Source: Opitutales bacterium (GTDB lineage: Bacteria > Verrucomicrobiota > Verrucomicrobiia > Opitutales > PNEW01). Taken from it: a stretch of 32,000 nt of DNA. Below, one piece after another: positions 8,623-31,940 of the stretch (positions within the stretch are counted from its first letter, which is position 1; each line of letters begins with the position of its first letter). Under the pieces are notes generated by a model, which saw nothing but the letters and a program-made list of their open reading frames with translations, ran no database searches and was not told the DNA's origin. The position numbers and the translations under genes are program-made. The stretch is taken from assembly GCA_965219535.1 (NCBI GenBank), contig CBDCNV010000002.1, positions 180,001 to 212,000 on the forward strand, written 5' to 3'.

Positions 8623-8690
8623 GAACCTTCAGATTTTACCTCAGGGTAAAAACATTGCAGTCTATTTTTACACATGTTTTAAATCGTAAT

Positions 8691-9557: not shown

Positions 9558-9598
9558 GCTATTTTAACTAATATTCGCCGATCGAAAGTTACGTTTCT

Positions 9599-11278: not shown

Positions 11279-11318
11279 GTTTATACACCCCACGCAATGA
11301 TGGCAGCTATTGCCGTGA

Positions 11319-13595: not shown

Positions 13596-13835
13596 GAAAT
13601 TCTTTGAGCTAAAATTAGCGCTTAACTTAGTGCTTTATTAACAAGCTCTAATCCATATAATATATTAAATAGTAAAAGGCACCAATTTTACCTCTCCTAG
13701 GGAAGACAGCCGATAACACTCGCTTTTATAAGGCGTTAGTTATGATATTGCAATATTAAAAAGGCGTTAATTCCTTTTTAATACATTATTTACAGCAATA
13801 TGAGGTATTGAAACTTTATAAAATTAATCGCATAA

Positions 13836-14918
13836 ATGTTTCACTTTTACCCCATAATAAAAAGCTCTTTAACCACCCGGTTAGAAGCACTCATTGCCCC
13901 ATGGCGTCGAGTTGCGGAAGTGGTTATACTCCTGCTTTGGCTAACTCTCATTTTGCCGAACAATCTAAGCGCTCAGGGTAAGAATGTTAAAGCTGGTCCC
14001 ATCACCATGGACCTGACCGCGAGGGTATCCCTTGAATACAATGACAACATCAATGCATCGGGCACAAATGGATTAAATGATTTTATATTATTTGCGGGTA
14101 TGGATATGGCCGGTAATTGGGATATTTCACGCATAAATAGTATGTCATTCAATTTAGGTGCAGAATACCGTAAATACTTTGAACATCCCGAGTTGAGTTC
14201 TGATCAAAACTTTCTCATTCTCTCTCCGGATACGGAGATGGCTTTCACGATTTTGGTTAAAGGAATAGAATTTCGTTTCTATGATAAGTTAAATTTTTCC
14301 ACCGACCCGACCGACTCGGTATTAGTAGATCCAGAAACGGGTGAAGTTTCCTACGATATATTAAGTTACAATCGGTTTGAAAATAGATTAGGGATCGATG
14401 CTGAATGGGATCTTAAACCACTGAAAATTACTTTTGGATTAAATAGAAATGACGTCATCCCACAGGACATAGAATTTGAATTTACGGATCGCACCCAAAA
14501 TACGATAGCGTTAGGTGGAAGCGTTCAGTATGCAGCAAATTTAATGGTTGGTGTCGAAGGCACTTATTTAATTACCGAATACAAGGATAACTTTCAAAAC
14601 GGGAGCGAAGGCTATACGATCGGACCTTTTGTTAACTGGCAGATCTCGCGCTTCATAAGTCTTGCCTTCCACTCATATTGGAACAATATAGATTTCGATA
14701 ATACCGGTGATAATAGCGATAGTTCCGACAGCTCAACGTTCAATTTTAACCTTAGTCTGAATCACGTATTTAATAGGCACTATTCCCATTCTTTTAATTT
14801 GTCGCAAACGACCTATCTTGGATTTATTGCTAATACGACAACGGTTGAAAACATTACTTATTCCTTTGTGTTAGATGCCATACTGATCGGACCCCGTTTT
14901 TCGTACCAATTTAAGTGA
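13836..14918 (+). CDS. Putative outer-membrane beta-barrel protein (EpsL-like candidate); 3' end replaced by IS sequence
   Basis: 360 aa. It has a signal-like N-terminus (VVILLLWLTLILPNNLSAQG). Short alternating aromatic/polar strands rich in Y, F, N, G and D run throughout. The last ~10 codons (from ~14889, PRFSYQFK*) lie inside the IS terminal repeat, so the native C-terminus is lost. Confidence 0.5.
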   Translation: MFHFYPIIKSSLTTRLEALIAPWRRVAEVVILLLWLTLILPNNLSAQGKNVKAGPITMDLTARVSLEYNDNINASGTNGLNDFILFAGMDMAGNWDISRINSMSFNLGAEYRKYFEHPELSSDQNFLILSPDTEMAFTILVKGIEFRFYDKLNFSTDPTDSVLVDPETGEVSYDILSYNRFENRLGIDAEWDLKPLKITFGLNRNDVIPQDIEFEFTDRTQNTIALGGSVQYAANLMVGVEGTYLITEYKDNFQNGSEGYTIGPFVNWQISRFISLAFHSYWNNIDFDNTGDNSDSSDSSTFNFNLSLNHVFNRHYSHSFNLSQTTYLGFIANTTTVENITYSFVLDAILIGPRFSYQFK

Positions 14919-15876
14919 GAGAGTTACCGGGTGTTAATGGTTTTAGGATTGATGTATATGAGAGATCTTGGCGAAGTGAGGGCGTAGCCCGAACGCGGCC
15001 AAGATCGGAAAGGAATCTGACAAACTCTTGTGGGCTTTTGAAGCCTAAACGACTGTGGGGATGTTCATGGTTATAGGTCTGACGCCATTGTTCGATTACC
15101 ACTTGCGCTTCAGCCACGCTGAGCAACACTTCACGGTTCAAACACTCATCGCGTAAGCGGTTGTGAAACGACTCGATGAAACCGTTTTGCCAGGGACTGC
15201 CCGGATCGATATAGATCGCCTTTATGTTATTACCGGACAACCACTGCTGCACTTGATGAGCAATGAACTCACTGCCGTTGTCACTACGGATATAGCTGGG
15301 AGGTCCCTCCTCTTCAATGGCCTCGCTAAGCACAGAGAGGACATCGGTTGAGGTGAGTTGACGAGCGACCCGGATATCCAGGCATTTACGCGTATATGTC
15401 TTCGCTTCGCTTGAGTGTCGTCGCTTTCAGCTCCTCGGTACATCGATCAGAGTCATCATCTTTAATGGACCGCCGTTGTCTGTACGATCATGGACAAAGT
15501 CCCAGGACCAAACGTGATTGCGACCCTTTGCTTTAGTAGGTGACCCCGTAGAGACTCCTTGACGGTGTCTGCCCTTTTTCGGGGGCTTTACCTGCAGCCC
15601 TTCTGAACGTCGTACCGCCTGGACAAACTTCCTGCTTGTTGTCCAGCCTTCCTTTACCAGCAAGGCACGGATGCGCCGGTAACCGTAGCGGGGATGTTTC
15701 CAGGACAAGCTCACAATCCGCTCGACCAACCGCTGAGCTTTCTCACTGGCCTGTTTGGGCCGGTAACTGAACGTTGACCAACTCAGGCTGAGATAAGCAC
15801 AAGCCCTCCGCAACGAGCACAACCCTTTCTCAGCCGCAGCTTTTACTACTCGTTTCTTCTGCTTTGGGCTCACCAT
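14911..15876 (-). pseudogene. IS3-family transposase OrfB (integrase/rve DDE domain) with an in-frame TGA
   Basis: ORFs 15427-15876 and 14911-15333 are in one continuous frame, interrupted only by a TGA at 15429-15427. The read-through is ...KMMTLIDVPRS*KRRHSSEAKTYTRKCLDIRVARQLTSTDVLSVLSEAIEEEGPPSYIRSDNGSEF... The frame is -1 relative to orfA. Confidence 0.8.
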
Positions 15877-16163
15877 TTTTTTGACAGCGTTTCCTCCATT
15901 ACCTGATTCTTGAGCATTTGATCTGCGAGCAGCTTCTTCAGCTCGGTATGTCAGGCCTTCTCGCTTGCGCTCGTGAATTCTTTTTCCAGCTCTTTAAATC
16001 GCTTCGCATCGGCAAGTTCTAAATTGCCATATTTTTTACGCCAGCGATAGAAAGTCTGTTCGCTCAGGTTGTTTCCACGGCAGATTTCCTGTACCGTTTT
16101 ACCGGTATCGGCTTGCCGCAATATTGTTATAATCTGTTCTGTTGTGTATCTTTTTCTTTTCAT
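15870..16163 (-). pseudogene. IS3-family transposase OrfA (HTH + leucine-zipper region) with an in-frame TGA
   Basis: The frame reads MKRKRYTTEQIITILRQADTGKTVQEICRGNNLSEQTFYRWRKKYG...KELEKEFTSASEKA, then a TGA at 15953-15951. It continues in the same frame as HTELKKLLADQMLKNQVMEETLSKKW* to 15870. Confidence 0.8.
15876..15882 (-). other. Programmed -1 ribosomal frameshift slippery heptamer (A AAA AAA) at the orfA/orfB overlap
   Basis: A run of 7 T on the plus strand (15876-15882) reads tcA AAA AAA tgg tga in the orfA frame. The orfB frame opens at the overlapping ATG (15876-15874). This is the classic IS3-family architecture. Confidence 0.7.
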
Positions 16164-16275
16164 TGAGGTTATCTGTTTATCCCGATAACCTCTCTCTGTA
16201 AATGATACGATTTTTGGGGGTCACTCCAAAAAGATTAGCGAGCAGAAGAGTATCTTACGTGCAAGGATTGATAAC

Positions 16276-17358
16276 TTGGATAAGGTAATTGCGGAATGGG
16301 AGCATACCGCTCTCGACAATAGCCGACGCATGGCGGAATTTGACCGGCTAAACTCGCGATTGGAGCGTTCAAGAACACTTTATCAAAGGCTTCTTAGCTC
16401 TATTCAATCCATCGATCTCAACCTTAATGTCGATCAGGAGACGCTTGCCATCCTGGAAAATGCGACAGCGGCTCGATTGCTCAGGGGATCGGTTAGCAAA
16501 AAATTAGCCCAGGGAGGGCTTGCTGGACTTATGATTGGCGCTGGTTTGATTTTCCTCATCGGTGTCATCGACAATCGAATAGTATCTGCAGAAGATATCA
16601 GCCTTCGCTTTGAACCACCCGTATTAGGAATTATACCACTCGAAAAAATAACTGATAATGGGCAATTGGAACATATTAAACCTAAAGATGACCGGCACTT
16701 ATTTGCTGAAGCCTGTCGCGCTCTACGCTCCTCTCTTCTTTTTATGGAAGATCAGGGATCGAAACCGCAATGTATTATTGTTACGAGTTCTGTTCCCTCC
16801 GAGGGTAAATCGATGATATCCACTAATCTATCTATAACATTAGCGCTGGCTGCATCGCGTACCATACTTGTCGATCTCGACTTAAGACGAGGGCAACTAT
16901 ATAAAGTGTTTGGCACGACGCGCAAAGACGGTTTGCACGAGGTGATCAATAACGGAGTAGAACTCGATGACGTGATACAAAAAACAGAGATTGAAAACCT
17001 TGATTTTATTCCTTGCGGCGTTTACCCGGACCGCCCAGGGGAATTGCTCCTTAGTGAACATATGGAGCAGATACTACGCGAACTTAAAGAACGCTACGAT
17101 TATATAATTTTCGATACCGCGCCAATACTAGCTACGGATGATACTTCAAGTTTTGCCGCTAAAACGGATGGGGTCCTTTTTGCCGTGCGTTCATCTAAGA
17201 CTCAAGCGCGACAAGTAAAAGCCTCAATGGAGCGACTACATTTACGAAGCACTACAGTTTTGGGATTTATCCTAAATTTTGTTGATACTCAGAATCCCGA
17301 CTACTATTATTATAAAAAGTATTCCTATTATTATACGGCAGATTCTTTGGCGAGTTGA
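16276..17358 (+). CDS. 5'-truncated Wzc/GumC-type polysaccharide co-polymerase / tyrosine autokinase (BY-kinase) fragment
   Basis: The fragment has a coiled-coil Wzz-like remnant and one TM (GGLAGLMIGAGLIFLIGVI). Walker A (SSVPSEGKS), A' (VDLDLRRG) and B (IIFDTAP) motifs follow, with a C-terminal Tyr cluster DYYYYKKYSYYYT. The frame is open back to 16189 and abuts the IS end at 16223/16224. The N-terminal ~half of a normal ~700-aa protein is absent, and the TTG at 16276 is only the ORF-track start. Confidence 0.8.
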   Translation: MDKVIAEWEHTALDNSRRMAEFDRLNSRLERSRTLYQRLLSSIQSIDLNLNVDQETLAILENATAARLLRGSVSKKLAQGGLAGLMIGAGLIFLIGVIDNRIVSAEDISLRFEPPVLGIIPLEKITDNGQLEHIKPKDDRHLFAEACRALRSSLLFMEDQGSKPQCIIVTSSVPSEGKSMISTNLSITLALAASRTILVDLDLRRGQLYKVFGTTRKDGLHEVINNGVELDDVIQKTEIENLDFIPCGVYPDRPGELLLSEHMEQILRELKERYDYIIFDTAPILATDDTSSFAAKTDGVLFAVRSSKTQARQVKASMERLHLRSTTVLGFILNFVDTQNPDYYYYKKYSYYYTADSLAS

Positions 17359-17450
17359 AGCTTTCCAGTCGGTAATTTAACGACGTGTCGCTAGCTTGAT
17401 CAGATGGGCTAACTTTCACGCATCCTAAGGTTCAAGAATATACTCTTCGC

Positions 17451-19774
17451 ATGGCTTCATCCATAGGCCACTACCTAAGTCTCTGCTTCATTTTTATTTT
17501 AATCCTGCTTGGAGGGGGAACAAATATCTGGTCACAAGCACTCTGTTTAGTGGCAACGGGTATTTTCCTCATATGTTTTCCACCCCGAAAGTCACCTGGA
17601 AAATATATTAATATTGCAGCTTTAGGGTTGATTGCTACGGCCCTGCTGGGATTTCTTCCCATCCCATTATTTTTGCGGCCACGCTGGTGGATTGAAGCTA
17701 CACAGGATTTCGGATTATACCTTCCGCTTACTTTATCATCGCAACCGTTACATACGCTCGAAGCGGTAGTGTTATTAATAACCGTTATCGCCTGGTTTTA
17801 CACGCTCAGTGGGATGGAGCTTTTTCATACGCGGCGCAAAACCCTCCTTTGGTGTTTCTCTCTCGGCATCTTTATTCTCGCTATCGGTATTGTCATCGGA
17901 ACACATAAAACTTTAAATTACCCATTTGGCCGGGAAGCACATAGTTTCAGCTATTTTCCCAATCGCAACCAGACAAGTATTTTACTTGCGATGGGTGGTG
18001 TTGTCGCCTTCACCCTATCGATGATAGCGATGAGCTCCCGTCGTTATATACAGGTGTTATGCGGGCTGTTTATCACGATCGTTATTCTTTTTGCTCTCAT
18101 CTATAGTCTCTCTAAAGCGGGAATCCTATTATTTTTATCGGGTGCATTATCTGGCTTTTCAGCACCCAACAGAAGCGATCAATGTTTCGTTATGCCCGCT
18201 TCGCAGTACCCGTTATAATTATCCTCGTCAGTGTATTCATGATCTATGGTGGGTGGACCCTGGAACGAGTCGTCCAGTTATTCGATCAAGGGGTGATTAA
18301 TGAAAAAGGGTTTCGCTGGCGAATTTACCAGGACACGGCTCGTTTGATAGCTGATCAGCCGGTGTTGGGTATAGGACTGGGAAATTTTGAAGCAGTTTTT
18401 CCACAATATCGGGAGAATTCTGCCACTTTCCATGCTATAATCCACCCTGAGAGTGACTGGTTTTGGGTGTGGGCCGAGTTAGGAACATTGGGGGTTGTTT
18501 TTCTTCTGTTTCTTTGTGGAGCGATGTTTGCGGGAATTTTCCCTTTTAGTGAGGGAAAACAAACACATTACCGTGCCGTCGCCGCCACGGCAATGATCAT
18601 ATTTCTTGCGCACACCGTGGTCGATGTGTCAGGGCATCGCTTGGGGACAGTATTTGCGGCTATCTATTTGTCTGTCTTAGCCCGACCTCGCCATTCGGCC
18701 TCCGATGATTTATTCCCCCCACTATACTTTTGGCGATGGAGTGGAGTATCCATTCTTCTCGTGGGACTTATCTGGGGATTGGCTTGGGCATTACCACAAG
18801 CGTGGAATTCCTCTGTCGCACAAAAAATTAATGAGGATAGAATCGAACAAGCATTAGAGAGAAGGGATAAAAAATCATTTGAAGAGGCAGTTAATGACTC
18901 CCTGATGTGGTCTCCGCTTAACATGAGGGCTTATTTTGATCGAGCGCGTGGTTTAATACATTTTCGAGAAAATGCTCAAGCAGCGAGGAAGGACTTTAGA
19001 CGCGCCCGATATCTGGAACCGATAACTGCAGACGTAGCCTTCTATGAAGGACTGGCGTGGATACCGCACAATCAGGCTTATACCCTTAGCGCCTGGCGTG
19101 AAGCATTAGCGCGTAAAACTGAATTTCCGCGTGATCTCTATCGTATGATGCTGCGTCATTCCAATAAAATTGATCCGCTCAATGCTCAAGTACGTGCACT
19201 ATCCGTCGTTGACCCCGCCCACCAATTTTTCATGTTAAATTCGTTATATGGAAATGAGTTTAAAGAGGAATTCCATTTTATCGCAGTAAACAATCCCTTA
19301 CTGGAAAATTATTCTCTACAGCAAAAGAAGATTCTTTTTAAAAAATGGATCGATTCGGGTGATGTGATAGGTGTGGTAGAACATTTCGATGAATACCCAG
19401 CCATCGCCGATGAACTATGGGTTAGCAAGGCGCGTGCTGATGCCGCTGGAGGTGACTATTTTTCGGCTTGCACAACTGTTTTTCAGCACCTCTCAAAACC
19501 GGATCTTCCAGCCATAGGGGAAGACATTCCAGTTTTTCAGTTGGAGCGCCTGTATATCGTCAATCAACACGATCCGGTTTACGGGGCCGCTTTATTAAAG
19601 CATCAAATCGAACTTCGCGACTGGAATGGAGTGTTACGAACAATCGGAAAATTTAAGAATCAACCTGACATTCCTAGTTACGTTTACTACTGGGAAGCCA
19701 AGATTTATTTTGATCAGAAAAAATTAGCAGAGAGCTGGTCTAGTTTGGCAATCTATCTCAAGAGAGTCGAATAA
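17451..19774 (+). pseudogene. O-antigen-ligase-like (Wzy_C) polytopic membrane protein with C-terminal helical-repeat domain, split by a frameshift near 18150-18180
   Basis: ORFs 17451-18218 and 18182-19774 overlap in different frames. The first ends inside the Wzy_C core (YSLSKAGILLFLSGAL). The second frame is open from 18116 and continues with the family-typical RWRIYQDTARLIADQPVLGIGLGNFEAVF and HPESDWFWVWAELGTLG. Together they make ~770 aa. Confidence 0.7.
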
Positions 19775-19819
19775 TAATCGGGTATTACCGTTAGCAGTGT
19801 CTTAACCCTATTGAATCTC

Positions 19820-21355
19820 TTATTGAGGGTCTACGTTTACTGAACGATCAAGAAATGCGAGGACTTTCATTCTTGCTTCCTCTTCATATTCCAATCCAGA
19901 GACTATAATTTCCAATGAGCGTCGACCGCTCAGCCGCTTGGCCTTCATTGCATTATCCAGCCGTTCCCATTTACTGCGGGCAGAAGGGACCGTCTCACCA
20001 GATACGTCATTCCAAACTGAGAAGAAAACAAAGATCGGTGAATTGTTGTCATATAATATATATGTATTTATCTCTAAATCTAATCCATTTCTCGACCAAT
20101 TGAAATCATCCGCATGAATAATTTCGGAATAACCAGCGGCTGGAAGGCAAACTTCGGGGCGATGCACATCGGAAAATGATGAGATGTTTCCTTCTTCCCA
20201 GTTAAAGTAATAGGTGATCCAATGTTCTCTTTGGCCGATATTCCACCGTGCTTTTTTACCTTCTGAATAACGTAAAACAGAACGTATCCTTCCGGGGATA
20301 TCTTCGAATATTATATCAGATGCGGCTTGCGTCCAATCGATCGTTGCAATGATACGATCTTGCCTGGCGGGTTCCTGTAATTGATACCAGGCTTCAACGA
20401 ATGGGGCGCTTCCGATTAATAAAATTAGTGCTGGATAAACAGTTATCTTGTTCAACCAATTTATCGAAAAGAAGAGATGATCATTATGGTTCCCCTGCTT
20501 TCTGCTACGCTTATTTTTTCTCACGAAAAATGACAGAAACAGAAGAAGCACAAATGCAAAAAGTGAAACTAAGTAGCCAACCGGATCATGCCAATGTTCC
20601 ATAAACTGCGGCCCAATCATATGTGTTGCAAAAGTAAGCGTTAAGGTTCGTATGATATTGAGAACGATCGAAGCGACAACGCCAAACCCCAGGAGAGAAA
20701 CACGCCAATTAATGTTGAAACGAAAGAGTTCGCCGAGAAAGTATCCTAACATCAGGGTGGATTGAAAAGAGCGCACCCCACTGCAAGCTTCTTCTACACC
20801 CACCAGTCCGTTGGTCAGCATTATGATGTTTCCTTTTTGCAGAGCATAAATCCCCAGAAGATTAAAAGTATCTACCGTTATTGCTGCCACCATGCGCATC
20901 AAACCTTGAATGAGTGGCTGTTCAAATTGCGTTGGCCAAGGAACGCTGAACAAGAGGATTAAAAATGGAAGGGAAAAATGTTTTAGCCAGGGTGATCCCC
21001 CCCATTGATAAAAGATAGCTAAAGTTGCCCCAAAAACAATCATCGACTGGGTCCAATGCATGAGACGCCAATCGGGATTGGATTCGAGAATGATTTTTGT
21101 CGGGTAAAGACTGACCAAAACAATAAACAATAAAAGGGTGGTCAGTTTATTAAATCGTGCCACCTCGGGAGAGGGTCTATCTTGCCAACGCAGGAAAATT
21201 AAATAGGCTCCAATCCAGGGAACGAGATAGCCGAATTGATACTGTTCATTAAGTGACCACTCCAAGCTTAAGGTTAAAAACAGATCCCCCCACAACAGAC
21301 AGAGAAGGAGGATATTACTGGTTTTAAGTATAGAGGAGTGATAGATATAGCCCAC
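19820..21355 (-). CDS. Exosortase (EpsH/Xrt family) with fused C-terminal EpsI-like domain
   Basis: 511 aa. The N-terminus is WSLNEQYQFGYLVPWIGAYLIFLRW. The catalytic-type motif EEACSGVRSF has its Cys codon at 20785-20783. The conserved Arg (LNIIRTL) and His (HWHDPVGY) are present across ~8 TM helices. A ~200-aa soluble tail follows a KNKRSRK stop-transfer, in the position of EpsI. Confidence 0.85.
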   Translation of the reverse strand: MGYIYHSSILKTSNILLLCLLWGDLFLTLSLEWSLNEQYQFGYLVPWIGAYLIFLRWQDRPSPEVARFNKLTTLLLFIVLVSLYPTKIILESNPDWRLMHWTQSMIVFGATLAIFYQWGGSPWLKHFSLPFLILLFSVPWPTQFEQPLIQGLMRMVAAITVDTFNLLGIYALQKGNIIMLTNGLVGVEEACSGVRSFQSTLMLGYFLGELFRFNINWRVSLLGFGVVASIVLNIIRTLTLTFATHMIGPQFMEHWHDPVGYLVSLFAFVLLLFLSFFVRKNKRSRKQGNHNDHLFFSINWLNKITVYPALILLIGSAPFVEAWYQLQEPARQDRIIATIDWTQAASDIIFEDIPGRIRSVLRYSEGKKARWNIGQREHWITYYFNWEEGNISSFSDVHRPEVCLPAAGYSEIIHADDFNWSRNGLDLEINTYILYDNNSPIFVFFSVWNDVSGETVPSARSKWERLDNAMKAKRLSGRRSLEIIVSGLEYEEEARMKVLAFLDRSVNVDPQ

Positions 21356-21720
21356 GCGCTCAAGACCCTACATTATTATTCTATTGATATTGAATTTTCC
21401 AATCCCTCAGCGAGGGAGACAGCGTTCATAACTTAAATTATAAAATGCATGTATTCTTTAATAAAAATAAAAAACCTCATACGTAAAGAGGACATTACAT
21501 GTTATATACCGACCTTTCTCATATAATCGCAAAATATCTCCTTGCCAAGTAGAGATTGGCGTATATGCAATGAATTGAAGGTTTTATGAGGTAGGTTATA
21601 AAAGCTGAAAATAATAAGACCAAATATCGGTAAATGATTTACAACTATATTCTTAGGAAAAGTCATGCACGGTAAAATTGCTTGCTATTGTAAATTCATC
21701 TTTTAAGAATACCCGAAAAT

Positions 21721-22560
21721 ATGGAGCTGAAGAAGAGTCCTGCCTTTACCCCGCATCTTGAAGATGAGTTGAGGGAATCCTTAAAGCGCTGTTCACCGGA
21801 AACCGTAGAAGCCGCTCTTGGCTTCCGGCAGTACGGAAATTTTGACGATATTCCGGTAATTGTATTAGGTATTATCGAGAGGTTCCTCGAACCTGATGTT
21901 CGACACTTACTTAGAGAAGGCAACGATGATACCCGTTTATTCGAAGACCTCGGTGTAGATTCCCTGTTGATGGTTGAGATTATTATTCTCGTAGAGGAAA
22001 CACTCGACATCTCTATTGCCAACGACGAATTAAGAGATATCAGGAGCGTAGGTGATATCAAAACTTACCTTGATTACAAAGTTAAAGGCATTCCTATTCC
22101 ACAACAGAACAAACGTCTCACGGTTGAAGAGATTGCTTCTGTGATGCCACACCAAGACCCCTTCCTCTTTATCAGAGAGTCTAAAATTAGTCTTAACGAG
22201 GCTGAATCCATTTACTCGATCACGGGGGAAGAATTTTTTCTCGATGGACATTTTAAAAACAACCCCGTTTTTCCCGCCTCTATTCTCATTGAAGCATTGG
22301 GGCAGTTGGCAGTACTCTATCTCATCCGAAACGAAAAGCCGGAATTCGAACAACCGATTGACACCAGTAAAGTGATGTTTGCTTCATGCGATGGCGTTCG
22401 CTGTCATCGGGTTTGCCGCCCTGGAGATATTCTTAACCTAAAAGTTAAATTGAAAAGGATACGCTATCCTTTAGTAACATTTGAGGGTACCATTACGGTG
22501 GGTGATGAAAAGGCTGTATTCGCGGAAGATATAACTTTGGCCTTTGACTATGAAAGTTAA
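21721..22560 (+). CDS. Fusion protein: acyl carrier protein domain + FabZ/FabA-like (hotdog) 3-hydroxyacyl-ACP dehydratase domain
   Basis: 279 aa. The ACP phosphopantetheine site is LGVDSLLMVE (Ser81 codon 21961-21963). The dehydratase motifs are MPHQDPFLFI and GHFKNNPVFPASILIEALGQ, carrying the catalytic His and Glu positions of FabZ. Confidence 0.8.
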   Translation: MELKKSPAFTPHLEDELRESLKRCSPETVEAALGFRQYGNFDDIPVIVLGIIERFLEPDVRHLLREGNDDTRLFEDLGVDSLLMVEIIILVEETLDISIANDELRDIRSVGDIKTYLDYKVKGIPIPQQNKRLTVEEIASVMPHQDPFLFIRESKISLNEAESIYSITGEEFFLDGHFKNNPVFPASILIEALGQLAVLYLIRNEKPEFEQPIDTSKVMFASCDGVRCHRVCRPGDILNLKVKLKRIRYPLVTFEGTITVGDEKAVFAEDITLAFDYES

Positions 22561-22636
22561 GGTTATCGCCTTTTAAGTAATCATTCACTCTTAACCGGGA
22601 AGTCCTTTAAAAGGCAAGCCCTTCGACCCAGGAAAG

Positions 22637-23902
22637 ATGCGCAAGGTAGTAGTCACCGGTTTGGGCTTTGTAACAAGCATTGGCAATGACAAAGCTTCCG
22701 TCTTCGACAGTCTTTGTCATTTGAAACATGGGATCGAACTTTTTCCCCCCTTCCAAAAAGATGATGTTCCGGTTAAATTAGCCGCGCCGATTAAGGAATT
22801 TAATACCGAATCCATGGATTCTGAAGACTGGGCCTACCCCAGTCAGTATAAATTGCGTTTAGACACCCTGCGCGGCTTATCACCTCATGGATTATATGCC
22901 TATTGTGCCATGGTTCAGGCGATCCAAGATGCCGGATTGTCTGAAGATGAGATTTCAAATCCAAAGACTGGTTTATTTACCGCCTCATCCGGGTCTGTAT
23001 CTATGACTTATAATCACCTCAATCGTATGTTTAAAGTTGGTGTTTTGAGGGCGTCACCCCAGGGAATTATTTCATCTATTGTCGGGACTTTGAATTTTAA
23101 TCTCGTTGCTGCATTTAAAATTAAAGGTGCGTCGAGTGGTTTTGCCTCGGCATGTTCTTCCTCTGGTCACGCGTTAGGGTATGCCTATGACGAAATTGCC
23201 CTCGGGCGCCACGACCGCATGTTTGTTGTCGGCGGTGAAGACGGCAACTTTCTTAGTATTTTGCCCTTTGCTGGTATGCGTGTTTTAACTTTATCACTCG
23301 ATCCAGATCGGGCTTCACGACCTTTTGATAAAAACAGGGATGGATTCGTAGGTACCGGAGGCGCGGTAGTGATGGTTTTGGAAGAGGAAACTATCGCGCG
23401 GAAGCGAAAAGCGGATATATACGCAGAATTCATGGGCTGGGGGCAAGCCTCTGATGGCTACCATGTCGCCCTTTCACACCCCGAGGGGAATGGGCTGATC
23501 CAATCGATGCAGCGGGCCTTGGAATCGGTGAAACTTGGTCCCAAAGATATCGATTACATCAATGCTCACGCCCCATCCACCCTCGCTGGTGATTTGTCGG
23601 AAATGCGCGCTTTAAAAAAAGTCTTTAATCAAAATAATTGTAAGCCGGCAATTAGCAGTACAAAAGCACTGACCGGCCATGCTTTATCACTCGCAAGCAT
23701 AATGGAAGCATCCTTTTCTGTCCTGGCAATAAAAGAAGACTTTACGCCGGGTTCAGCTCACATTGAGACCCTCGATCCAGAAGCAAAAGGTTTAAATATT
23801 ATAAATAAAACGCAAGAGGGGGGCCCCAAGCATGCGATGAGTAACAGCAGTGGTTTTGGCGGTGCGAATGTCTCTTTAATTTTTAGTGATCCCAATCACT
23901 GA
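22637..23902 (+). CDS. Beta-ketoacyl-ACP synthase, KAS I/II (FabB/FabF-like, Cys-His-His)
   Basis: 421 aa with the active-site Cys in ASACSSSGHA, His residues in NAHAPST and LTGHALS, and C-terminal SNSSGFGGANVSL. Confidence 0.9.
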   Translation: MRKVVVTGLGFVTSIGNDKASVFDSLCHLKHGIELFPPFQKDDVPVKLAAPIKEFNTESMDSEDWAYPSQYKLRLDTLRGLSPHGLYAYCAMVQAIQDAGLSEDEISNPKTGLFTASSGSVSMTYNHLNRMFKVGVLRASPQGIISSIVGTLNFNLVAAFKIKGASSGFASACSSSGHALGYAYDEIALGRHDRMFVVGGEDGNFLSILPFAGMRVLTLSLDPDRASRPFDKNRDGFVGTGGAVVMVLEEETIARKRKADIYAEFMGWGQASDGYHVALSHPEGNGLIQSMQRALESVKLGPKDIDYINAHAPSTLAGDLSEMRALKKVFNQNNCKPAISSTKALTGHALSLASIMEASFSVLAIKEDFTPGSAHIETLDPEAKGLNIINKTQEGGPKHAMSNSSGFGGANVSLIFSDPNH

Positions 23903-23961
23903 TTTCTTGGATTCGGGACAAATTTAATTTTCGGTGTAAGTAGAGAGACCTGTATTGGCTT

Positions 23962-25170
23962 ATGACAAAGCCCCTTAAAATCACTTACTTATTTTCGACT
24001 TTCCCCGTTGCGACAGAAACCTTTTTGCAAAGGGAAGTCCGGGCAATGATTAAACTTCCGGTAGAACTTGAACTGTTTTCATTATGGGGAGGAGATAAAT
24101 CATATAAAGGGTTAAAAGTGTTTCGGTTCGCTAAATGGAAGCTGGTCTTACTGATTATTCTCTTCCCTTACTGGATGGGAAAGAATCCAAAAGCATTTCG
24201 TTATATTTTCTCAGGATTAAGGCAACGGAGCATGCCATCGCTCGGCAATGCCGGTGAAATTTTTATCGGATTAAGTTTTGCCATTCTTTACGCAGGAAGA
24301 TTCAGCCGACAACGACCTTCACACTTTCATGCTACATGGGCGACAATGCCTGCGACCGCTGCCATGCTTTTATCTAAACTGACAGGAGTACCATTCTCTA
24401 TGGGGGCTCATGCTTTCGACATTTATGCAAATGGTGGCGACTGGTTATTGCCTGAAAAACTATCGGAGTCCACTTTTGTTCATACAACAACTGAAGCAGC
24501 CGAACGTTATTTAATTGAAAGGGGTGCTGATAAAAATGACATCGTGGTCATTAGGCGTGGTCTGGACTACTATCCAGAGTTAAAAACAGAGCATGCTATC
24601 AGACATCCATTAAGAATTCTAAGTGTTGGAAGACTTGTAGAAAAAAAAGATCAATTACGACAAATTGATATCTATGCTGAGTTGTTGAAAAAGGGGGTTT
24701 CTTTCAAAGCCAGAATAGTGGGATCTGGGCCGATGGAAAATACATTGCGTGCGAAAATTAAGGAACTTGATCTTCTGGCTAACGTGAAACTCATGGGTTA
24801 TATTGATAATGAGGCAGTGTTTGAACAGTATCGTTGGGCAGATATTTTTCTCTACACGACAAGAATCGCTTCTGACGGTAATCGCGATGGAACCCCTAAT
24901 GTGATCCTAGAGGCTATGGCGGCGGGTTTGCCGGTTGTTGCTGCCGTCCATCCCGGAATATCCGAAGTTATCACCTCTGAGGAAAATGGATTGATTATCG
25001 AGCAATCAGAGAGTGAAGCTTGGGGTGAAGCTATTTCAGACCTCATTAATAATTGTGAATTATACAATAAAATCCGAATGAATGGACGTCACTGGGTAGA
25101 AGAAAATGCAGATGCACACAAAAATACTACCCGTCTCTACCAAAAGTTTAAAAACGCCGTTAATGCTTAA
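23962..25170 (+). CDS. Glycosyltransferase family 4 (GT-B, WcaL-like)
   Basis: 402 aa with the C-terminal GT4 signature DGTPNVILEAMAAGLPVVAAVHPGISEVI. The N-terminus TYLFSTFPVATETFLQREV resembles EPS/colanic-acid-type GT4 enzymes. Confidence 0.85.
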   Translation: MTKPLKITYLFSTFPVATETFLQREVRAMIKLPVELELFSLWGGDKSYKGLKVFRFAKWKLVLLIILFPYWMGKNPKAFRYIFSGLRQRSMPSLGNAGEIFIGLSFAILYAGRFSRQRPSHFHATWATMPATAAMLLSKLTGVPFSMGAHAFDIYANGGDWLLPEKLSESTFVHTTTEAAERYLIERGADKNDIVVIRRGLDYYPELKTEHAIRHPLRILSVGRLVEKKDQLRQIDIYAELLKKGVSFKARIVGSGPMENTLRAKIKELDLLANVKLMGYIDNEAVFEQYRWADIFLYTTRIASDGNRDGTPNVILEAMAAGLPVVAAVHPGISEVITSEENGLIIEQSESEAWGEAISDLINNCELYNKIRMNGRHWVEENADAHKNTTRLYQKFKNAVNA

Positions 25171-25192
25171 AAGTAAATGATTCGTCTAAAAT

Positions 25193-26275
25193 TTAATTAT
25201 TATCCTCAGCCCCGTTAATAACGGCCGTTAATTCATTTTTGATTTCTTCAACCGAAAATGCGTTGAAATAGCGCCGATGATAAGCGCGGGTAGTTTCCCA
25301 AAGTCGTGGAGAGAGGGGCTTCTCAAATACCTTGGCCGATGATCCAAGTGGCCGCCAGCGAGTCGAGGCCAGTTTTCTCCCGAGTGGTCCGATAAGCGTT
25401 ACCGCTGGGCAATTTACCGCGGTGGCAAGATGCGCTGGGCCACTGTCTCGAGAAAGCAGAAAACGCGCTTCGTTTAAAACACGAGCGGTCTCCCCTAAAT
25501 GAGTGATCCCGGTTAAATCGCTAACCTTTTCACTCAAGCGATTACCGATTAATTTTAAAAATGATTTTTTCACGGGATCATCGCTCTCAGATCCAATGAG
25601 AACGAGATGATAATCTAACTCATCAATAAGCCAGGGGGTAAGCCCCGCGAAAATGTTTGCCGGGATCCGGGCTTTGGATGCGTGTGCGCTTATATGAAAT
25701 ACGGCAAAAGGACAATTGGATCTCCACCAGGGTAAAAGCTCAAGCAGGCGCGCGTCAGTTATGGATTCCGGTGATAGCCAGGGTTCGAGTTTATGAGGTG
25801 GGGAGATGTGAAGAGGGTTGAGCAAATCTAAATTATATTCGGCCTCATGTTGCAGTCCTTCCTTTCTTCGATCAGGGATAGTGTGGGTGAGCCAGGCGTT
25901 ATGTTTTTTTTGCCGGTGACCCAATCGATAGGGAATATTCGCTTTATAGGCAGCAGCAGCTACTATTGGGTCATGATTAAAGTGAATGATACAATCTGGA
26001 TTTAAATTCAGTATCTTATCTCTTAAAAATGGGATTGAATGATTGGGGTTCGCATTGCGATCCGGCAGGGAAATTATTCCTGAAAGCAAGGGATGATCAC
26101 TGAGTAATGGAATCAACGGCTCATTAACGAGGAAGTAAATCTCAAGGTCAGGATAAACATCATGGATTACTTTTAGACACGAAGTCGTGATTACCACATC
26201 GCCAATGCGATCTGGGCGGGATAGCAGCAGGCGCTTGAAAGCCCTGACTGCCTGTTGAGAGATTTTCGACTTCAA
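25193..26275 (-). CDS. Glycosyltransferase family 9 (heptosyltransferase-like)
   Basis: 360 aa with RPDRIGDVVITTSCLKVI near the N-terminus and LSRDSGPAHLATAVNCPAVTLIGP near the C-terminus. Both are typical GT9 blocks. Its start overlaps the stop of the upstream alpha-oxoamine synthase by 4 nt. Confidence 0.85.
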   Translation of the reverse strand: MKSKISQQAVRAFKRLLLSRPDRIGDVVITTSCLKVIHDVYPDLEIYFLVNEPLIPLLSDHPLLSGIISLPDRNANPNHSIPFLRDKILNLNPDCIIHFNHDPIVAAAAYKANIPYRLGHRQKKHNAWLTHTIPDRRKEGLQHEAEYNLDLLNPLHISPPHKLEPWLSPESITDARLLELLPWWRSNCPFAVFHISAHASKARIPANIFAGLTPWLIDELDYHLVLIGSESDDPVKKSFLKLIGNRLSEKVSDLTGITHLGETARVLNEARFLLSRDSGPAHLATAVNCPAVTLIGPLGRKLASTRWRPLGSSAKVFEKPLSPRLWETTRAYHRRYFNAFSVEEIKNELTAVINGAEDNN

Positions 26276-27468
26276 AGACCCTTTGCAGCGAATGCCATAG
26301 CCTCGCCAATTTTTTCCAGATCCTCTTTTGTATGTCGCGCTGAAATCGCGGTTCGAATAAGAATTTTATTTGGCAAGACAGCGGGTGGGGGGATTATATT
26401 CGTAAATATCCCTTTTTTCATCAGTTTTTTCCAAAAGTAATAAGCGCGTTCTATTTTTCCCAGGACGATAGGGGTCGCCGGCGTCTCTGATCCCCAGATG
26501 TCGAGATCTAAATCTACAAGGAGTTTATGATAATAGCGTGTATTATCCCAGAGGCGTTGTAAATGTTCCGGTTCTGTCTGTATTATATCTAAAGCGGCTT
26601 GGGCGCAAGCGGTCTGGCAGGGACTTAAGGCCGCGCTAAATACTGTTTGTTTAGAATGGGTCCTGAGATATTCAATGATTTCGTTAGAACCGGCGACAAA
26701 CCCGCCGGTACTTCCCATGGATTTAGACATGCTTCCCGCAATGACGTCCACTTGATCGGTTGCACCGAAATGATCTACCGTTCCCCTGCCCTGTTCACCC
26801 AGGACCCCGAAACCATGAGCATCGTCTACGACAAAGAAACAATTTTGGTTTTGGATGACGGTTAAATAGTCGAGGAGATTTGCAATGTGGCCTTCCATTG
26901 AAAAGACCCCTTCGACAACCAGCATTTTTGCAATTTCAGGTGATTCTTTTTCCAGAACTTCCTTCAAACTTTCGGTATTATTGTGGCCGAACCTTTCCAG
27001 ACGAGCTCCGGTATTTGCAATTCCCGCCCAGAGACTGGAGTGAACATTGCGATCGACAATAATCAGATCGCCTTTACGGGCGAAGGATTCAATAGAAGAC
27101 ATGCAAGAGATATAACCTGCTACGCTTACATGGCAGGCTTCCTTCCCGAGAAAGTTTGCCAAATCCGCCTCAAGTTTTTCATGGAAATACCGACTGCCAT
27201 TGGCAAAGCGTGATCCAGTTGTTCCGCCACCCCAATCTTCCAATGCCTTTTTACCCGCTTCGATAACTTTCGGGTGATCGCTCAATCCCAGGTAATCATT
27301 GCTGCTGAGCATGATTAACTCTTTTCCATCAAGCCATACGTGAGAACCTATCTGTTTATCAAATGGCAGATAATAAGGATTGTATTTTAACCGAAGTCGC
27401 GTCTGGTCGTCATTGATACAGCGTTCGACAATACCGTTTCTGGCGCTGGAGGATGTAGAGGTGATCAT
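26272..27468 (-). CDS. PLP-dependent alpha-oxoamine synthase, serine-palmitoyltransferase-like
   Basis: 398 aa with SSNDYLGL and a glycine loop GGGTTGSRFANGS, also VEGVFSMEG and VDDAHGFG. The Schiff-base lysine context is GSMSKSMGSTGG. From memory, the GSRxxNG and SKS contexts are closer to bacterial Spt (GTNGSRMLNG, TFSKS). They are further from BioF, Kbl or ALAS (G-K-A/G contexts). Confidence 0.8.
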   Translation of the reverse strand: MITSTSSSARNGIVERCINDDQTRLRLKYNPYYLPFDKQIGSHVWLDGKELIMLSSNDYLGLSDHPKVIEAGKKALEDWGGGTTGSRFANGSRYFHEKLEADLANFLGKEACHVSVAGYISCMSSIESFARKGDLIIVDRNVHSSLWAGIANTGARLERFGHNNTESLKEVLEKESPEIAKMLVVEGVFSMEGHIANLLDYLTVIQNQNCFFVVDDAHGFGVLGEQGRGTVDHFGATDQVDVIAGSMSKSMGSTGGFVAGSNEIIEYLRTHSKQTVFSAALSPCQTACAQAALDIIQTEPEHLQRLWDNTRYYHKLLVDLDLDIWGSETPATPIVLGKIERAYYFWKKLMKKGIFTNIIPPPAVLPNKILIRTAISARHTKEDLEKIGEAMAFAAKGL

Positions 27469-27717
27469 ATTACGCTTAAAATAGACTTAAAATATAACCT
27501 AAAGCGTGGTCACATTAGGTCAAATGAACACAAATTAAAGGTTCTTATACCGACGAGAAATTCTAGGGTAAAGGATAAAGAACAGCCTTAGATAGCAATT
27601 TGCCCTAATTCCTTTCCCCTGTTCGCTTTCCTCACATTTGCTTGAACAAAACCAGCTTGTCATTCTGCTTTCATCTAATAATTTAGCCACTGTTTTAAAA
27701 TTAAATACGGTAATTTA

Positions 27718-28836: not shown

Positions 28837-28837
28837 G

Positions 28838-31750: not shown

Positions 31751-31940
31751 TGTCGCTAAGATAAAGACGCGGCCACGACGGAGCGACATCTTCCATTCCA
31801 GGCGAATAGTCAATGTGATTACAAATACCAGTCTCCGATCAATAAATATGTGCATCTTATTGTATAATGTAGATCGGCATTCGTCTACTGAGCGAAGCCT
31901 TGCATTCAGGGACTGCGAATACGCAACAGACATTCCCCTG

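What the first reader, a model, noticed from the sequence alone, without database searches (positions are those of the whole stretch)
19820..27468. Exosortase head-to-head with a private ACP/KAS/dehydratase/SPT-like/GT4/GT9 module: candidate exosortase-linked amino-glycolipid pathway
Seen in the sequence:
- The exosortase-EpsI gene (minus strand) and the ACP-FabZ / KAS / GT4 operon (plus strand) diverge from one 365-bp AT-rich intergenic region (21356-21720).
- Converging on that operon is an SPT-like alpha-oxoamine synthase overlapping a GT9 by 4 nt.

Established knowledge:
- Alpha-oxoamine synthases condense an amino acid with an acyl-CoA or acyl-ACP to give a long-chain amine (sphingoid, capnoid or CAI-1 type).
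- Bacterial ceramide clusters (Caulobacter type) combine Spt, a dedicated ACP, an acyl-ACP synthetase and an SDR reductase.
- Exosortase A loci carry their own, different acyl-CoA-ligase / ACP / PLP-enzyme accessory set (the TIGRFAM 'exosortase system type 1 associated' families) of unknown role.
- The acceptor onto which exosortases transfer cleaved PEP-CTERM proteins has not been established.

Inference: this module could build an amine-bearing, glycosylated lipid that either decorates the envelope together with the EPS or serves as the exosortase acceptor. I know of no described system with this exact gene set.
Basis: partly seen in the sequence, partly recalled or inferred. Interest (0 to 1): 0.72.

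Follow-up and report, generated by a model that had tools for sequence, protein, structure and literature searches.

The report
Exosortase beside conserved Opitutales glycolipid genes
The genes are all there, but the exosortase lies beside the lipid genes only in one small group of related bacteria, because a 12.85-kb polysaccharide-export block sits at that spot; the lipid genes form a separate, widely conserved and uncharacterised cluster in Opitutales that probably makes a sugar-decorated, sphingolipid-like lipid.

Summary
Observation confirmed: every gene, the 365-bp AT-rich divergent spacer and the 4-nt AOS/GT9 overlap are as described.

The exosortase link is not supported.
- Among 80 species-level loci holding the ACP-dehydratase gene, KAS is adjacent in 73/75 evaluable loci, the GT4 orthologue in 38/56 and the AOS in 27/51.
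- An exosortase is adjacent in 2/76, and in 0/73 outside the window's own clade.
- Five of six exosortase homologue contexts lack all lipid genes. Three of them keep a Wzy_C-like partner, two with Wzc and Wza as well.
- In a close relative (L002), window 8646-21493, the whole EPS/exosortase block, is replaced by about 58 bp. The 227-bp ACP-DH leader is retained.
- The window's block is damaged: an IS3 element truncates Wzc and removes Wza, and the Wzy-like gene is frameshifted.

What remains is a real lipid module found across class Opitutia: ACP-FabZ-type dehydratase fusion, CHH-triad KAS, SDR, GT28/GT4/GT9 glycosyltransferases, and an AOS closest to characterised serine palmitoyltransferases (clade profile 374 bits, next non-SPT 308). 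It most likely builds a glycosylated sphingoid-type amino-lipid. I found no description of it. Interest is moderate.

The parts
5944..7605 (+). Fatty-acid CoA/AMP ligase family protein (PRK09274 type, OleC-like). It lies directly upstream of the lipid module in island-free L002. Membership of the module is possible but unproven.
   Evidence: NCBIfam NF006754 637 bits, above its cut-off of 478; OleC models are below cut-off. In L002 it is contiguous with OleD-like and ACP-DH. It is absent from 68/68 evaluable loci outside the clade.
7621..8622 (+). Extended-SDR reductase, OleD-like (3-beta-HSD/epimerase fold). Candidate keto-reductase for the module in this clade, which lacks the classical SDR found in Opitutaceae clusters. 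This is an inference.
   Evidence: NF042423/NF042422 383-387 bits, below the cut-off of 580; Pfam 3Beta_HSD 178.8 bits. In L002 its stop codon lies about 300 bp from the ACP-DH start.
8646..21493 (.). 12.85-kb strain-variable EPS/exosortase cassette. Contents: GT2, TPR protein, FecR-domain protein, truncated ~420-aa unknown, IS3 element, Wzc remnant, Wzy_C-like gene, exosortase-EpsI fusion.
   Evidence: blastn: window 373-8645 and 21494-31754 are contiguous in L002 with about 58 bp between them. The cassette is present in L001, L003 and L081.
14884..16228 (-). IS3-family insertion sequence (HTH_Tnp_1 orfA; HTH_21 and rve_3 orfB pieces). It replaces about 2.1 kb that is intact in L001.
   Evidence: Pfam hits; blastn gap against L001. 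L001 has a 424-aa unknown, a 330-aa Wza-like protein (Poly_export/SLBB) and a 696-aa Wzc where the window has 360 aa, nothing, and 360 aa.
16276..17358 (+). C-terminal remnant (kinase domain) of a Wzc-type polysaccharide tyrosine autokinase.
   Evidence: TIGR01007 146 bits, above its cut-off of 108. The full-length gene is 696 aa in L001 and L081.
17451..19774 (+). Wzy_C/O-antigen-ligase-like membrane protein. Split by a frameshift near 18160-18218 in the window.
   Evidence: Two ORFs in different frames; Wzy_C Pfam hit. It is a single 775-799-aa gene in L081, L082 and L086 and intact in L003. L001 has an in-frame stop.
19820..21355 (-). Exosortase with a fused EpsI-like C-terminal domain. It belongs to an unclassified Opitutales/Puniceicoccaceae subtype and is part of the EPS cassette, not the lipid module.
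   Evidence: PF09721 142.7 bits; TIGR04178 signature 57 bits, above its cut-off of 23; no Xrt subtype cut-off reached (best XrtD 106 against 400). ACSGVR motif at residue 190. 340 homologues found.
21494..21720 (+). Conserved leader or promoter region of the ACP-DH operon. It is kept with or without the cassette.
   Evidence: Long invariant blocks across window, L001, L081, L002 and L003. The motifs occur only in this clade. No Rfam match.
21721..22560 (+). Fusion of an acyl carrier protein (DSL phosphopantetheine site, S81) with a FabZ-type dehydratase (H177/E191).
   Evidence: Pfam PP-binding plus FabA; FabZ 78.8 bits, below its cut-off of 113. Invariant residues in alignment A1. 1770 homologues and at least 374 species representatives, the best 80 all Opitutia.
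22637..23902 (+). Dedicated elongating beta-ketoacyl-ACP synthase (FabF/FabB-like paralogue) with a Cys173/His311/His347 triad.
   Evidence: FabF 329 bits, below its cut-off of 494; motifs. Adjacent to ACP-DH in 73/75 evaluable loci.
23962..25170 (+). GT4 glycosyltransferase of the lipid module.
   Evidence: Glycos_transf_1 115.8 bits. Orthologue (40-47% identity) lies downstream of KAS in 38/56 evaluable loci.
25193..26275 (-). GT9 (heptosyltransferase-family) glycosyltransferase, translationally coupled to the AOS.
   Evidence: Glyco_transf_9 62.3 bits. The 4-nt overlap with the AOS is also present in distant L005 (15475-16542 and 16539-17735). Present in 4/51 loci.
26272..27468 (-). Alpha-oxoamine synthase, SPT-like, with the PLP lysine at K249.
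   Evidence: NF047600 (SPT, CFB type) 360.5 bits, below its cut-off of 640; BioF 324, below 426. Nearest PDB entry is S. multivorum SPT: 282 bits with the single sequence, 373.6 bits with the clade profile, against 308 for the next non-SPT. 13 of 16 SPT active-site residues are identical (one search read against PMC10196870).

Best explanation
Two unrelated gene sets have been juxtaposed.

(1) Window 8646-21493 is a 12.85-kb polysaccharide-export/exosortase cassette: GT2, TPR protein, FecR-domain protein, ~420-aa unknown, Wza, Wzc, Wzy_C-like protein and an exosortase-EpsI fusion. In one genus-level Opitutales clade it lies immediately upstream of a lipid operon, which creates the head-to-head arrangement. 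It is dispensable for the lipid genes: a nested relative lacks it cleanly, and the window's own copy is partly decayed.

(2) The ACP-dehydratase fusion, KAS, GT4, GT9 and SPT-like AOS are this clade's version of a lipid module conserved across class Opitutia. In Opitutaceae the module reads thioesterase, GT4 | ACP-DH, KAS, SDR, GT28, GT4, GT4, AOS, GT4.

Proposed mechanism (inferred, not shown). A fatty acyl chain is carried on the fused ACP. The dedicated KAS extends it, and a reductase plus the fused FabZ-type dehydratase process it. No enoyl reductase is encoded in the module. The SPT-like AOS then condenses the acyl-ACP with an amino acid, most likely serine, to give a long-chain 2-amino-3-keto base. 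An SDR reduces this base, and the GT28, GT4 and GT9 enzymes glycosylate it to give a glycosphingolipid-like envelope lipid.
For: Juxtaposition rather than linkage:
- An exosortase lies next to ACP-DH in 2/76 evaluable loci, and in 0/73 outside the clade. No exosortase-like tblastn hit appears elsewhere even at E<=1e-3.
- Of the six exosortase homologue contexts, only the 83%-identical one has the lipid genes. Three of the other five keep a Wzy_C-like gene, two also with Wzc, Wza and the ~420-aa unknown, and those three sit beside transketolase. The remaining two have unrelated neighbours.
- L002 joins window 8645 to 21494 across about 58 bp.
- L002 is as close to the window as island-bearing L081, while the more distant L003 has the island. 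This points to loss of the cassette in L002.
- The 227-bp ACP-DH leader is conserved with or without the cassette.
- The cassette carries an IS3 insertion and a frameshift in the window.

The lipid module is real:
- KAS 73/75, GT4 38/56, AOS 27/51.
- The GT9-AOS 4-nt overlap recurs in L005 at 40% and 64% identity.
- Catalytic residues are intact in the ACP, dehydratase, KAS and AOS.
- SDR, MGDG-synthase-like GT28, further GT4s and a YbgC-type thioesterase recur in the cluster.
- The AOS clade profile scores characterised SPT highest: 373.6 bits, against 308 for Thermus AOS, 251-276 for KBL and 196-239 for BioF.
Against: - The product has not been observed. No lipidomics exists for these organisms in the literature I searched.
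- No N-acyltransferase (bCerS-like) is linked in any of the 80 loci, so a true ceramide is not demonstrated.
- The AOS is below every curated Spt cut-off, and its amino-acid substrate cannot be read from the sequence.
- AOS is within 10 kb in only about half of the evaluable loci.
- The window clade lacks the classical SDR and GT28.
- Within the window's clade the cassette position is stable in four genomes, so some clade-specific co-regulation cannot be excluded.
- L002 is a MAG contig, so a mis-join is unlikely but possible.
- The 80 loci are the best-scoring of at least 374 and are dominated by Opitutaceae.
Confidence: 0.72

Rival explanations
1. The lipid module is functionally tied to the exosortase: it builds the glycolipid acceptor onto which cleaved PEP-CTERM-type proteins are transferred, or a lipid co-deployed with the EPS, and the two share a divergent control region.
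For: The head-to-head arrangement is stable in the window and three related genomes with exosortase identities of 97%, 83% and 71%. Both gene sets act on the envelope. A published link exists between lipid (N-acyl amino acid) synthases and PEP-CTERM/exosortase systems (Craig et al. 2011; only the title was seen, as reference 34 of PMC11631085).
Against: - 0/73 loci outside the clade and 0/5 distant exosortase contexts show the link.
- The cassette is cleanly absent in nested relative L002 while the lipid operon and its leader are intact.
- The cassette is decaying in the window itself.
- The lipid module is common in Opitutaceae loci, none of which has an exosortase within 10 kb.
- No PEP-CTERM-like substrate is nearby.
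- The exosortase is not XrtA, and none of the listed NCBIfam matches of the window proteins is an XrtA-associated lipid family.
Confidence: 0.05
2. The AOS is a BioF (KAPA synthase), and ACP-DH, KAS, SDR and thioesterase form a dedicated pimeloyl-ACP route. The module would then be a biotin pathway variant.
For: BioF is among the top NCBIfam hits (324 bits). KAS plus reductase plus dehydratase acting on an ACP resembles the fatty-acid-like assembly of pimeloyl-ACP (established knowledge of BioC/BioH and BioZ routes, from memory).
Against: - The score is below the BioF cut-off (324 against 426).
- The clade profile scores solved BioFs at only 196-239 bits against 374 for SPT.
- The AOS is translationally coupled to a GT9 and embedded among 2-5 glycosyltransferases.
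- None of the recurrent neighbour families I annotated is BioA-, BioB- or BioD-like. This list was not exhaustive and these genes were not searched for directly.
Confidence: 0.06
3. ACP-DH, KAS and SDR make a special fatty acid for LPS or another glycolipid, as the rhizobial AcpXL/FabZXL/FabFXL cluster does. The GT4 and GT9 would be LPS-core-type transferases, and the AOS would be a separate or auxiliary activity rather than the anchor-forming step.
For: Dedicated ACP, FabZ paralogue, FabF paralogue and dehydrogenase is the AcpXL-cluster architecture (from memory). GT9 is the LPS heptosyltransferase family. LptF/G lies two genes upstream in L005. AOS is absent within 10 kb in about half of the loci.
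Against: No LpxXL-type acyltransferase is linked. GT9 is rare in the module (4/51). GT28 is MGDG-synthase-like, a family that glycosylates a membrane lipid directly. The conserved GT9-AOS coupling argues that the AOS acts in the same pathway.
Confidence: 0.15

Closest known systems
Bacterial sphingolipid (ceramide) clusters of the Caulobacter/Sphingomonas type: Spt + dedicated ACP + acyl-ACP synthetase + CerR + bCerS
   Same: An SPT-like AOS is linked to a dedicated carrier-protein domain. The AOS's closest characterised relatives are bacterial SPTs. A reductase (classical SDR, or the OleD-like extended SDR) and, in the window clade, an acyl-AMP/CoA ligase lie nearby. Spt-like proteins have already been inferred in Verrucomicrobiota MAGs (PMC11334938).
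   Different: The ACP is fused to a FabZ-type dehydratase and paired with its own KAS. No bCerS-like N-acyltransferase is linked. Two to five glycosyltransferases are built into the cluster. The AOS is below all curated Spt cut-offs.
Sphingomonad and Bacteroides glycosphingolipids (GSL, alpha-GalCer) made by glycosyltransferases acting on ceramide
   Same: The predicted end product is a sugar-decorated sphingoid lipid of the outer envelope (inference).
   Different: In those organisms the GT genes are not clustered with spt, an ACP-DH or a KAS (from memory). No product has been shown here.
Rhizobial AcpXL / FabZXL / FabF1XL / FabF2XL / AdhA2XL / LpxXL very-long-chain fatty acid cluster
   Same: A private ACP, FabZ paralogue, FabF paralogue and dehydrogenase are dedicated to one envelope lipid (architecture; from memory).
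   Different: There is no LpxXL acyltransferase. The ACP and dehydratase are fused. An AOS and lipid-type GTs are present.
Exosortase/PEP-CTERM EPS loci (XrtA-EpsI with Wza/Wzc/Wzy and 'exosortase A-associated' ligase, ACP and PLP enzymes; N-acyl amino acid synthase link of Craig et al. 2011)
   Same: The cassette at 8646-21355 is an exosortase-EpsI gene with Wzy_C-like, Wzc, Wza (in relatives), TPR and GT2 genes.
   Different: The exosortase is not XrtA and belongs to no curated subtype. The neighbouring lipid genes are not among the XrtA-associated families listed for these proteins and are not syntenic with this exosortase outside one clade.

Membership tests
Exosortase/archaeosortase superfamily | Matches the family HMMs above cut-off and has the active-site Cys motif | tested here: met
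   PF09721 142.7 bits (cut-off 25.7); TIGR04178 57.1 bits (cut-off 23); ACSGVR at residue 190.
Exosortase A (XrtA) / PEP-CTERM system type 1 | Exosortase reaches the XrtA model cut-off | tested here: not met
   TIGR03109 98.4 bits against a cut-off of 208. The best subtype hit, XrtD, scores 106 against 400.
Exosortase A (XrtA) / PEP-CTERM system type 1 | Neighbouring acyl ligase, ACP and PLP enzyme belong to the 'exosortase A-associated' families | tested here: not met
   No such NCBIfam family appears among the listed matches of ACSL, ACP-DH or AOS (for ACSL only the best 25 of 85 were shown). The GT4 scores 73 bits against cut-offs of 409-442 for the XrtA-system GT families. TyrK scores 151 against 230.65.
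Exosortase A (XrtA) / PEP-CTERM system type 1 | PEP-CTERM substrate genes present | tested here: inconclusive
   A regex for a C-terminal P[ED]P + TM + basic tail found none in the window or in L001-L003 and L081-L086. The rest of the genome was not available.
   Exosortase adjacent in 2/76 ACP-DH loci, 0/73 outside the clade. 0/5 exosortase contexts at 36-48% identity have the lipid genes. Clean indel in L002.
Bacterial serine palmitoyltransferase (Spt) | Reaches a curated Spt equivalog cut-off | tested here: not met
   NF047600 360.5 against 640; NF047599 313 against 500; NF047603 260 against 670.
Bacterial serine palmitoyltransferase (Spt) | Closest characterised relatives are SPTs and the active-site residues are conserved | tested here: met
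   S. multivorum SPT is top by single sequence (282 bits) and by clade profile (373.6 against 308 for the next non-SPT). 13 of 16 residues named in PMC10196870 are identical. These residues are largely family-wide, so they do not fix the substrate.
Bacterial serine palmitoyltransferase (Spt) | Falls in the Spt / Spt-like clade of an AOS phylogeny with BioF, Kbl and HemA outgroups | not tested
Only score rankings were obtained.
Bacterial ceramide cluster (Spt/ACP/ACP-synthetase/CerR/bCerS) | Dedicated ACP linked to the AOS | tested here: met
   PP-binding domain with an invariant DSL motif, fused to the dehydratase, in the same module.
Bacterial ceramide cluster (Spt/ACP/ACP-synthetase/CerR/bCerS) | bCerS-type N-acyltransferase linked | tested here: not met
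   No acyltransferase was found among the window ORFs or among the recurrent neighbour families I annotated across the 80 loci. An unlinked copy cannot be excluded.
Bacterial ceramide cluster (Spt/ACP/ACP-synthetase/CerR/bCerS) | Keto-reductase (CerR/KdsR) linked | tested here: inconclusive
   A classical SDR occurs in many Opitutaceae clusters and scores 70.6 bits against KdsR (cut-off 400) among many generic SDR hits. The window instead has an OleD-like extended SDR 13 kb upstream, adjacent only in L002.
BioF (8-amino-7-oxononanoate synthase) | Reaches the BioF cut-off and lies in a biotin operon context | tested here: not met
   TIGR00858 324 against 426.45. The clade profile scores solved BioFs at 196-239 bits. 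The neighbours are glycosyltransferases.
Housekeeping FabZ / FabF | Reaches equivalog cut-offs | tested here: not met
   FabZ 78.8 against 113 and 71.7 against 155; FabF 329 against 494; FabB 320 against 630. Catalytic residues are present.
AcpXL-type VLCFA cluster | LpxXL-type acyltransferase and AcpXL-specific ACP | not tested
   The comparison is from memory. No AcpXL- or LpxXL-specific model appeared among the hits.

The most novel reading that the evidence does not exclude
The Opitutia-wide module makes a previously undescribed class of oligoglycosylated sphingoid-type amino-lipids. The long-chain base would be assembled on an ACP-dehydratase fusion by a private KAS and handed to an SPT-like AOS. 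No enoyl reductase is encoded in the module, so the acyl donor could be a 2-enoyl-ACP, which would install a sphingosine-like delta-4 double bond biosynthetically rather than by a desaturase. The exosortase cassette is only a neighbour.
Probability: 0.25. Interest if true: 0.6.

Novelty: new variant of a known kind. Interest (0 to 1): 0.35.

Why it matters
As proposed, the finding would have addressed an open question: what exosortases attach their substrates to. The comparative evidence removes that promise, because the neighbourhood is a clade-specific accident of where an EPS cassette sits.

What remains has more modest value. It is a well-bounded, highly conserved lipid gene cluster, found in at least 374 species representatives of a widespread environmental class. 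It combines an SPT-like enzyme with a private ACP-dehydratase/KAS pair and built-in glycosyltransferases, and it lacks the bCerS gene expected for known bacterial ceramide synthesis. If its product is a glycosphingolipid-like lipid, that would extend bacterial sphingolipid biochemistry to Verrucomicrobiota with a different route for supplying the acyl chain. It would also give environmental lipidomics a candidate gene marker.

Tried and rejected
- Subtyping the exosortase with NCBIfam: no subtype cut-off reached.
- Rfam and tRNA scans of the window, looking for island landmarks or a riboswitch in the leader: nothing found.
- Promoter and terminator scans of the divergent spacer and the convergent junction: no more than chance.
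- Search for terminal inverted repeats of the IS3 element: none convincing. Its ends are known only from the blastn breakpoints.
- Regex scan for PEP-CTERM tails: none found.
- Literature searches for Verrucomicrobia or Opitutaceae sphingolipids and polar lipids: nothing specific to this cluster. The Craig et al. 2011 paper was not held.
- Reading the amino-acid specificity from S. multivorum SPT active-site residues: the residues are conserved but family-wide, so they are not diagnostic.
- ACSL and OleD-like as core members of the module: rejected as unproven, because they are adjacent only in L002 and absent from 68/68 evaluable loci outside the clade.
- The class-V aminotransferase next to the AOS as an amino-acid supplier: rejected. 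It abuts a 970-aa FAD/Fe-S oxidase gene (1 nt between the two ORFs) and is conserved only within the clade.
- A full AOS phylogeny: not done, for lack of reference sequences.

Full report
**1.

- exosortase, 19820-21355 (-), 511 aa
- ACP-dehydratase fusion, 21721-22560 (+), 279 aa
- KAS, 22637-23902 (+), 421 aa
- GT4, 23962-25170 (+)
- GT9, 25193-26275 (-)
- alpha-oxoamine synthase (AOS), 26272-27468 (-), 398 aa, overlapping GT9 by 4 nt

Pfam and NCBIfam confirm every domain call. The divergent spacer 21356-21720 is 365 bp with GC 0.27-0.35, against about 0.44 for the window.

All the lipid enzymes are paralogues that fall below the curated equivalog cut-offs: FabZ 78.8 against 113, FabF 329 against 494, BioF 324 against 426, and the best Spt model 360.5 against 640. 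Their catalytic residues are nevertheless intact:
- ACP: DSL motif with S81
- dehydratase: H177 and E191
- KAS: C173, H311 and H347
- AOS: K249, H143, D215 and H218

The exosortase passes the generic family models and keeps its ACSGVR motif. It reaches no Xrt subtype cut-off: XrtA scores 98 against 208 and XrtD 106 against 400.

**2. Synteny seen from the lipid genes**

The ACP-dehydratase fusion has 1770 homologues. A scan of one genome per species found at least 374 species representatives. The best 80 are all Opitutales, Opitutaceae or Puniceicoccaceae, and L001 (98% identical) shows that the window comes from an Opitutales bacterium.

I ran tblastn of every window protein against these 80 loci, each with ±10 kb of flank, and counted only loci with enough flank to judge:

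| Gene | Evaluable loci with it | Outside the window's clade |
|---|---|---|
| KAS | 73/75 | 70/72 |
| GT4 orthologue | 38/56 | 35/53 |
| AOS | 27/51 | 24/48 |
| GT9 | 4/51 | 1/48 |
| Exosortase | 2/76 | 0/73 |

No exosortase-like hit appears outside L001 and L003 even at E<=1e-3.

ORF clustering and annotation give this consensus order for Opitutaceae: YbgC-type thioesterase(-), GT4(-) | ACP-DH, KAS, classical SDR, MGDG-synthase-like GT28, GT4, GT4b, AOS(-), GT4b(-), and sometimes a 519-aa polytopic membrane protein of unknown function. The flanks are variable housekeeping genes: QueG, shikimate kinase, PurD and an oligopeptide ABC transporter.

In L005, a distant Opitutales lineage, the order is LptF/G, SMC, ACP-DH, KAS, [IS], GT4, GT9(-)/AOS(-), GT4, GT4, SDR. 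The GT9 and AOS genes there have the same 4-nt overlap as in the window.

**3. Synteny seen from the exosortase**

The exosortase has 340 homologues. They are full-length (~510 aa) exosortase-EpsI fusions in Opitutales and Puniceicoccaceae, and several carry PF11984. I examined six genomic contexts:
- The 83%-identical homologue (L081) repeats the window's arrangement.
- Those at 45-48% identity (L082, L083, L086) sit beside transketolase and keep a ~790-aa Wzy_C-like gene. Two of them also keep Wzc, Wza and a ~420-aa unknown.
- Those at 36-39% identity (L084, from Rubellicoccus, and L085) have unrelated neighbours.
- None of these five has ACP-DH, KAS or AOS within ±10 kb.

The exosortase's recurring partners are therefore polysaccharide-export genes, not the lipid genes.

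**4. The indel**

blastn of the window against L002 aligns 373-8645 and 21494-31754 to adjacent stretches separated by about 58 bp. L002's ACP-DH is 95% identical to the window's. So window 8646-21493 (12.85 kb) is present or absent as a single block. It holds GT2, the TPR protein, the FecR-domain protein, the ~420-aa unknown, the Wzc remnant, the Wzy_C-like gene and the exosortase.

By protein identity, L002 is as close to the window as island-bearing L081, and the more distant L003 also has the block. L002 is therefore nested among island-bearing genomes, and loss of the cassette in L002 is the most parsimonious reading. Either way, the lipid operon persists without its neighbour.

The 227 bp upstream of ACP-DH (21494-21720) are retained in L002. 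They contain long invariant blocks in all five clade members, even where the coding DNA is only 70-75% identical. Only 21356-21493 of the "shared" spacer belongs to the cassette. The only promoter-like matches, which are no better than chance, lie there on the exosortase strand.

**5. The cassette is decaying in the window**

Window 14884-16228 carries IS3-family transposase ORFs in place of 2.1 kb that is intact in L001. As a result:
- the ~424-aa unknown is cut to 360 aa
- the 330-aa Wza-like gene (Poly_export/SLBB) is missing
- only the C-terminal 360 aa of a 696-aa Wzc remain

The Wzy_C-like gene is frameshifted in the window and has an in-frame stop in L001, but it is intact in L003, L081, L082 and L086. 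Assembly errors cannot be excluded for the point defects. The IS replacement is structural.

**6. What the lipid module probably does**

The clade profile of 17 Opitutia AOS orthologues ranks solved structures as follows:

| Structure | Bits |
|---|---|
| Sphingobacterium SPT | 373.6 |
| Thermus BioF/Kbl-type AOS | 306-308 |
| Sphingomonad SPTs | 288-294 |
| KBL | 251-276 |
| Cysteate acyltransferase | 251 |
| BioF | 196-239 |
| ALAS | 185-236 |
| CqsA | 164 |

Thirteen of sixteen SPT active-site residues named in PMC10196870 are identical in the window's AOS. These residues are largely family-wide, so they do not settle the substrate.

Dedicated ACPs next to spt are a hallmark of non-Bacteroidota sphingolipid clusters (from memory). 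Spt-like proteins have been inferred in 22 Verrucomicrobiota MAGs (PMC11334938). The module also encodes a KAS, a FabZ-type dehydratase and usually an SDR, but no enoyl reductase. It adds a lipid-type GT28 and several GT4 or GT9 transferases.

My best inference is a glycosylated long-chain amino-alcohol (sphingoid-type) lipid whose acyl precursor is made on the fused ACP. The missing enoyl reductase suggests the donor might be a 2-enoyl-ACP, but this is speculation.

Weak points:
- No linked N-acyltransferase was found in any locus.
- AOS is linked in only about half of the evaluable loci.
- No chemistry is available.

I keep two rivals at low to moderate probability: a BioF/pimelate route, and an AcpXL-like fatty acid for LPS.

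In L002 the acyl ligase (5944-7605) and the OleD-like reductase (7621-8622) abut the module. They could supply acyl loading and keto-reduction in this clade, which lacks the classical SDR. That adjacency is itself clade-specific (1/71 evaluable loci, 0/68 outside the clade).

**7. Verdict**

The feature is a new variant of a known kind: an SPT-like AOS lipid cluster with an unusual ACP-dehydratase/KAS supply arm and built-in glycosyltransferases. It lies next to an ordinary, partly degraded exosortase/EPS cassette.

Noticed in passing
window 14884-16228 (-): IS3-family element: HTH_Tnp_1 orfA at 15951-16163, HTH_21 at 15427-15876 and rve_3 at 14911-15333, with orfB itself split. It replaces about 2.1 kb present in L001, which removes a Wza-like gene, the N-terminal half of Wzc, and the end of a ~424-aa unknown protein.
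   Followed up: yes
window 17451-19774 (+), junction about 18160-18218: The Wzy_C/O-antigen-ligase-like gene is split by a frameshift in the window and has an in-frame stop in L001. It is a single 775-799-aa gene in L081, L082 and L086 and intact in L003. This is either independent decay or long-read assembly error.
   Followed up: partly
window 21494-21720 (+): The ~227-nt region upstream of ACP-DH has long invariant blocks (for example TCTCCTTGCCAAG and GGTAAATGWTTTAC) in five clade members whose coding DNA is 70-97% identical. It is better conserved than the neighbouring genes, has no Rfam match, and its motifs are absent from the other 82 loci. It may be an operator or a leader RNA.
   Followed up: partly
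window 5944-8622 (+): An OleC-like acyl ligase (PRK09274, above cut-off) and an OleD-like reductase form a two-gene unit without OleA or OleB. In L002 they lie directly upstream of the ACP-DH operon. Their role is unknown; they may load or reduce the module's intermediates.
   Followed up: partly
window 11319-13595 (-): A 758-aa FecR-domain protein ends in a long (PE)n/(PD)n repeat tail with no transmembrane anchor. The (GS)n ORF on the opposite strand (11365-11748) is its antisense shadow.
   Followed up: no
window 27718-31750 (+): A class-V aminotransferase (AGXT/PhnW-like, below all cut-offs) abuts a 970-aa FAD-binding/Fe-S (GlcD/GlcF-like) oxidase gene, with 1 nt between the two ORFs. The pair is conserved next to the AOS only within the window's clade. 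It is probably glycolate/glyoxylate metabolism rather than part of the lipid module.
   Followed up: partly
L082, L083, L086 (around 5-12 kb and beyond): In three other Opitutales genomes the exosortase/Wzy_C block sits beside transketolase and is surrounded by Y1, DDE and IS3 transposase genes. This suggests the cassette lies in recombination-prone regions.
   Followed up: no
L026 18928-20487 (-) and homologues in 7 loci: A 519-aa polytopic membrane protein (at least 6 hydrophobic segments) with no Pfam match closes the Opitutaceae version of the lipid cluster. It is a candidate flippase or membrane glycosyltransferase.
   Followed up: partly
L005 12417-14009 (+): A DDE_Tnp_1 transposase is inserted between KAS and GT4 of the lipid module in this small (1.49 Mb record) Opitutales genome.
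   Followed up: no
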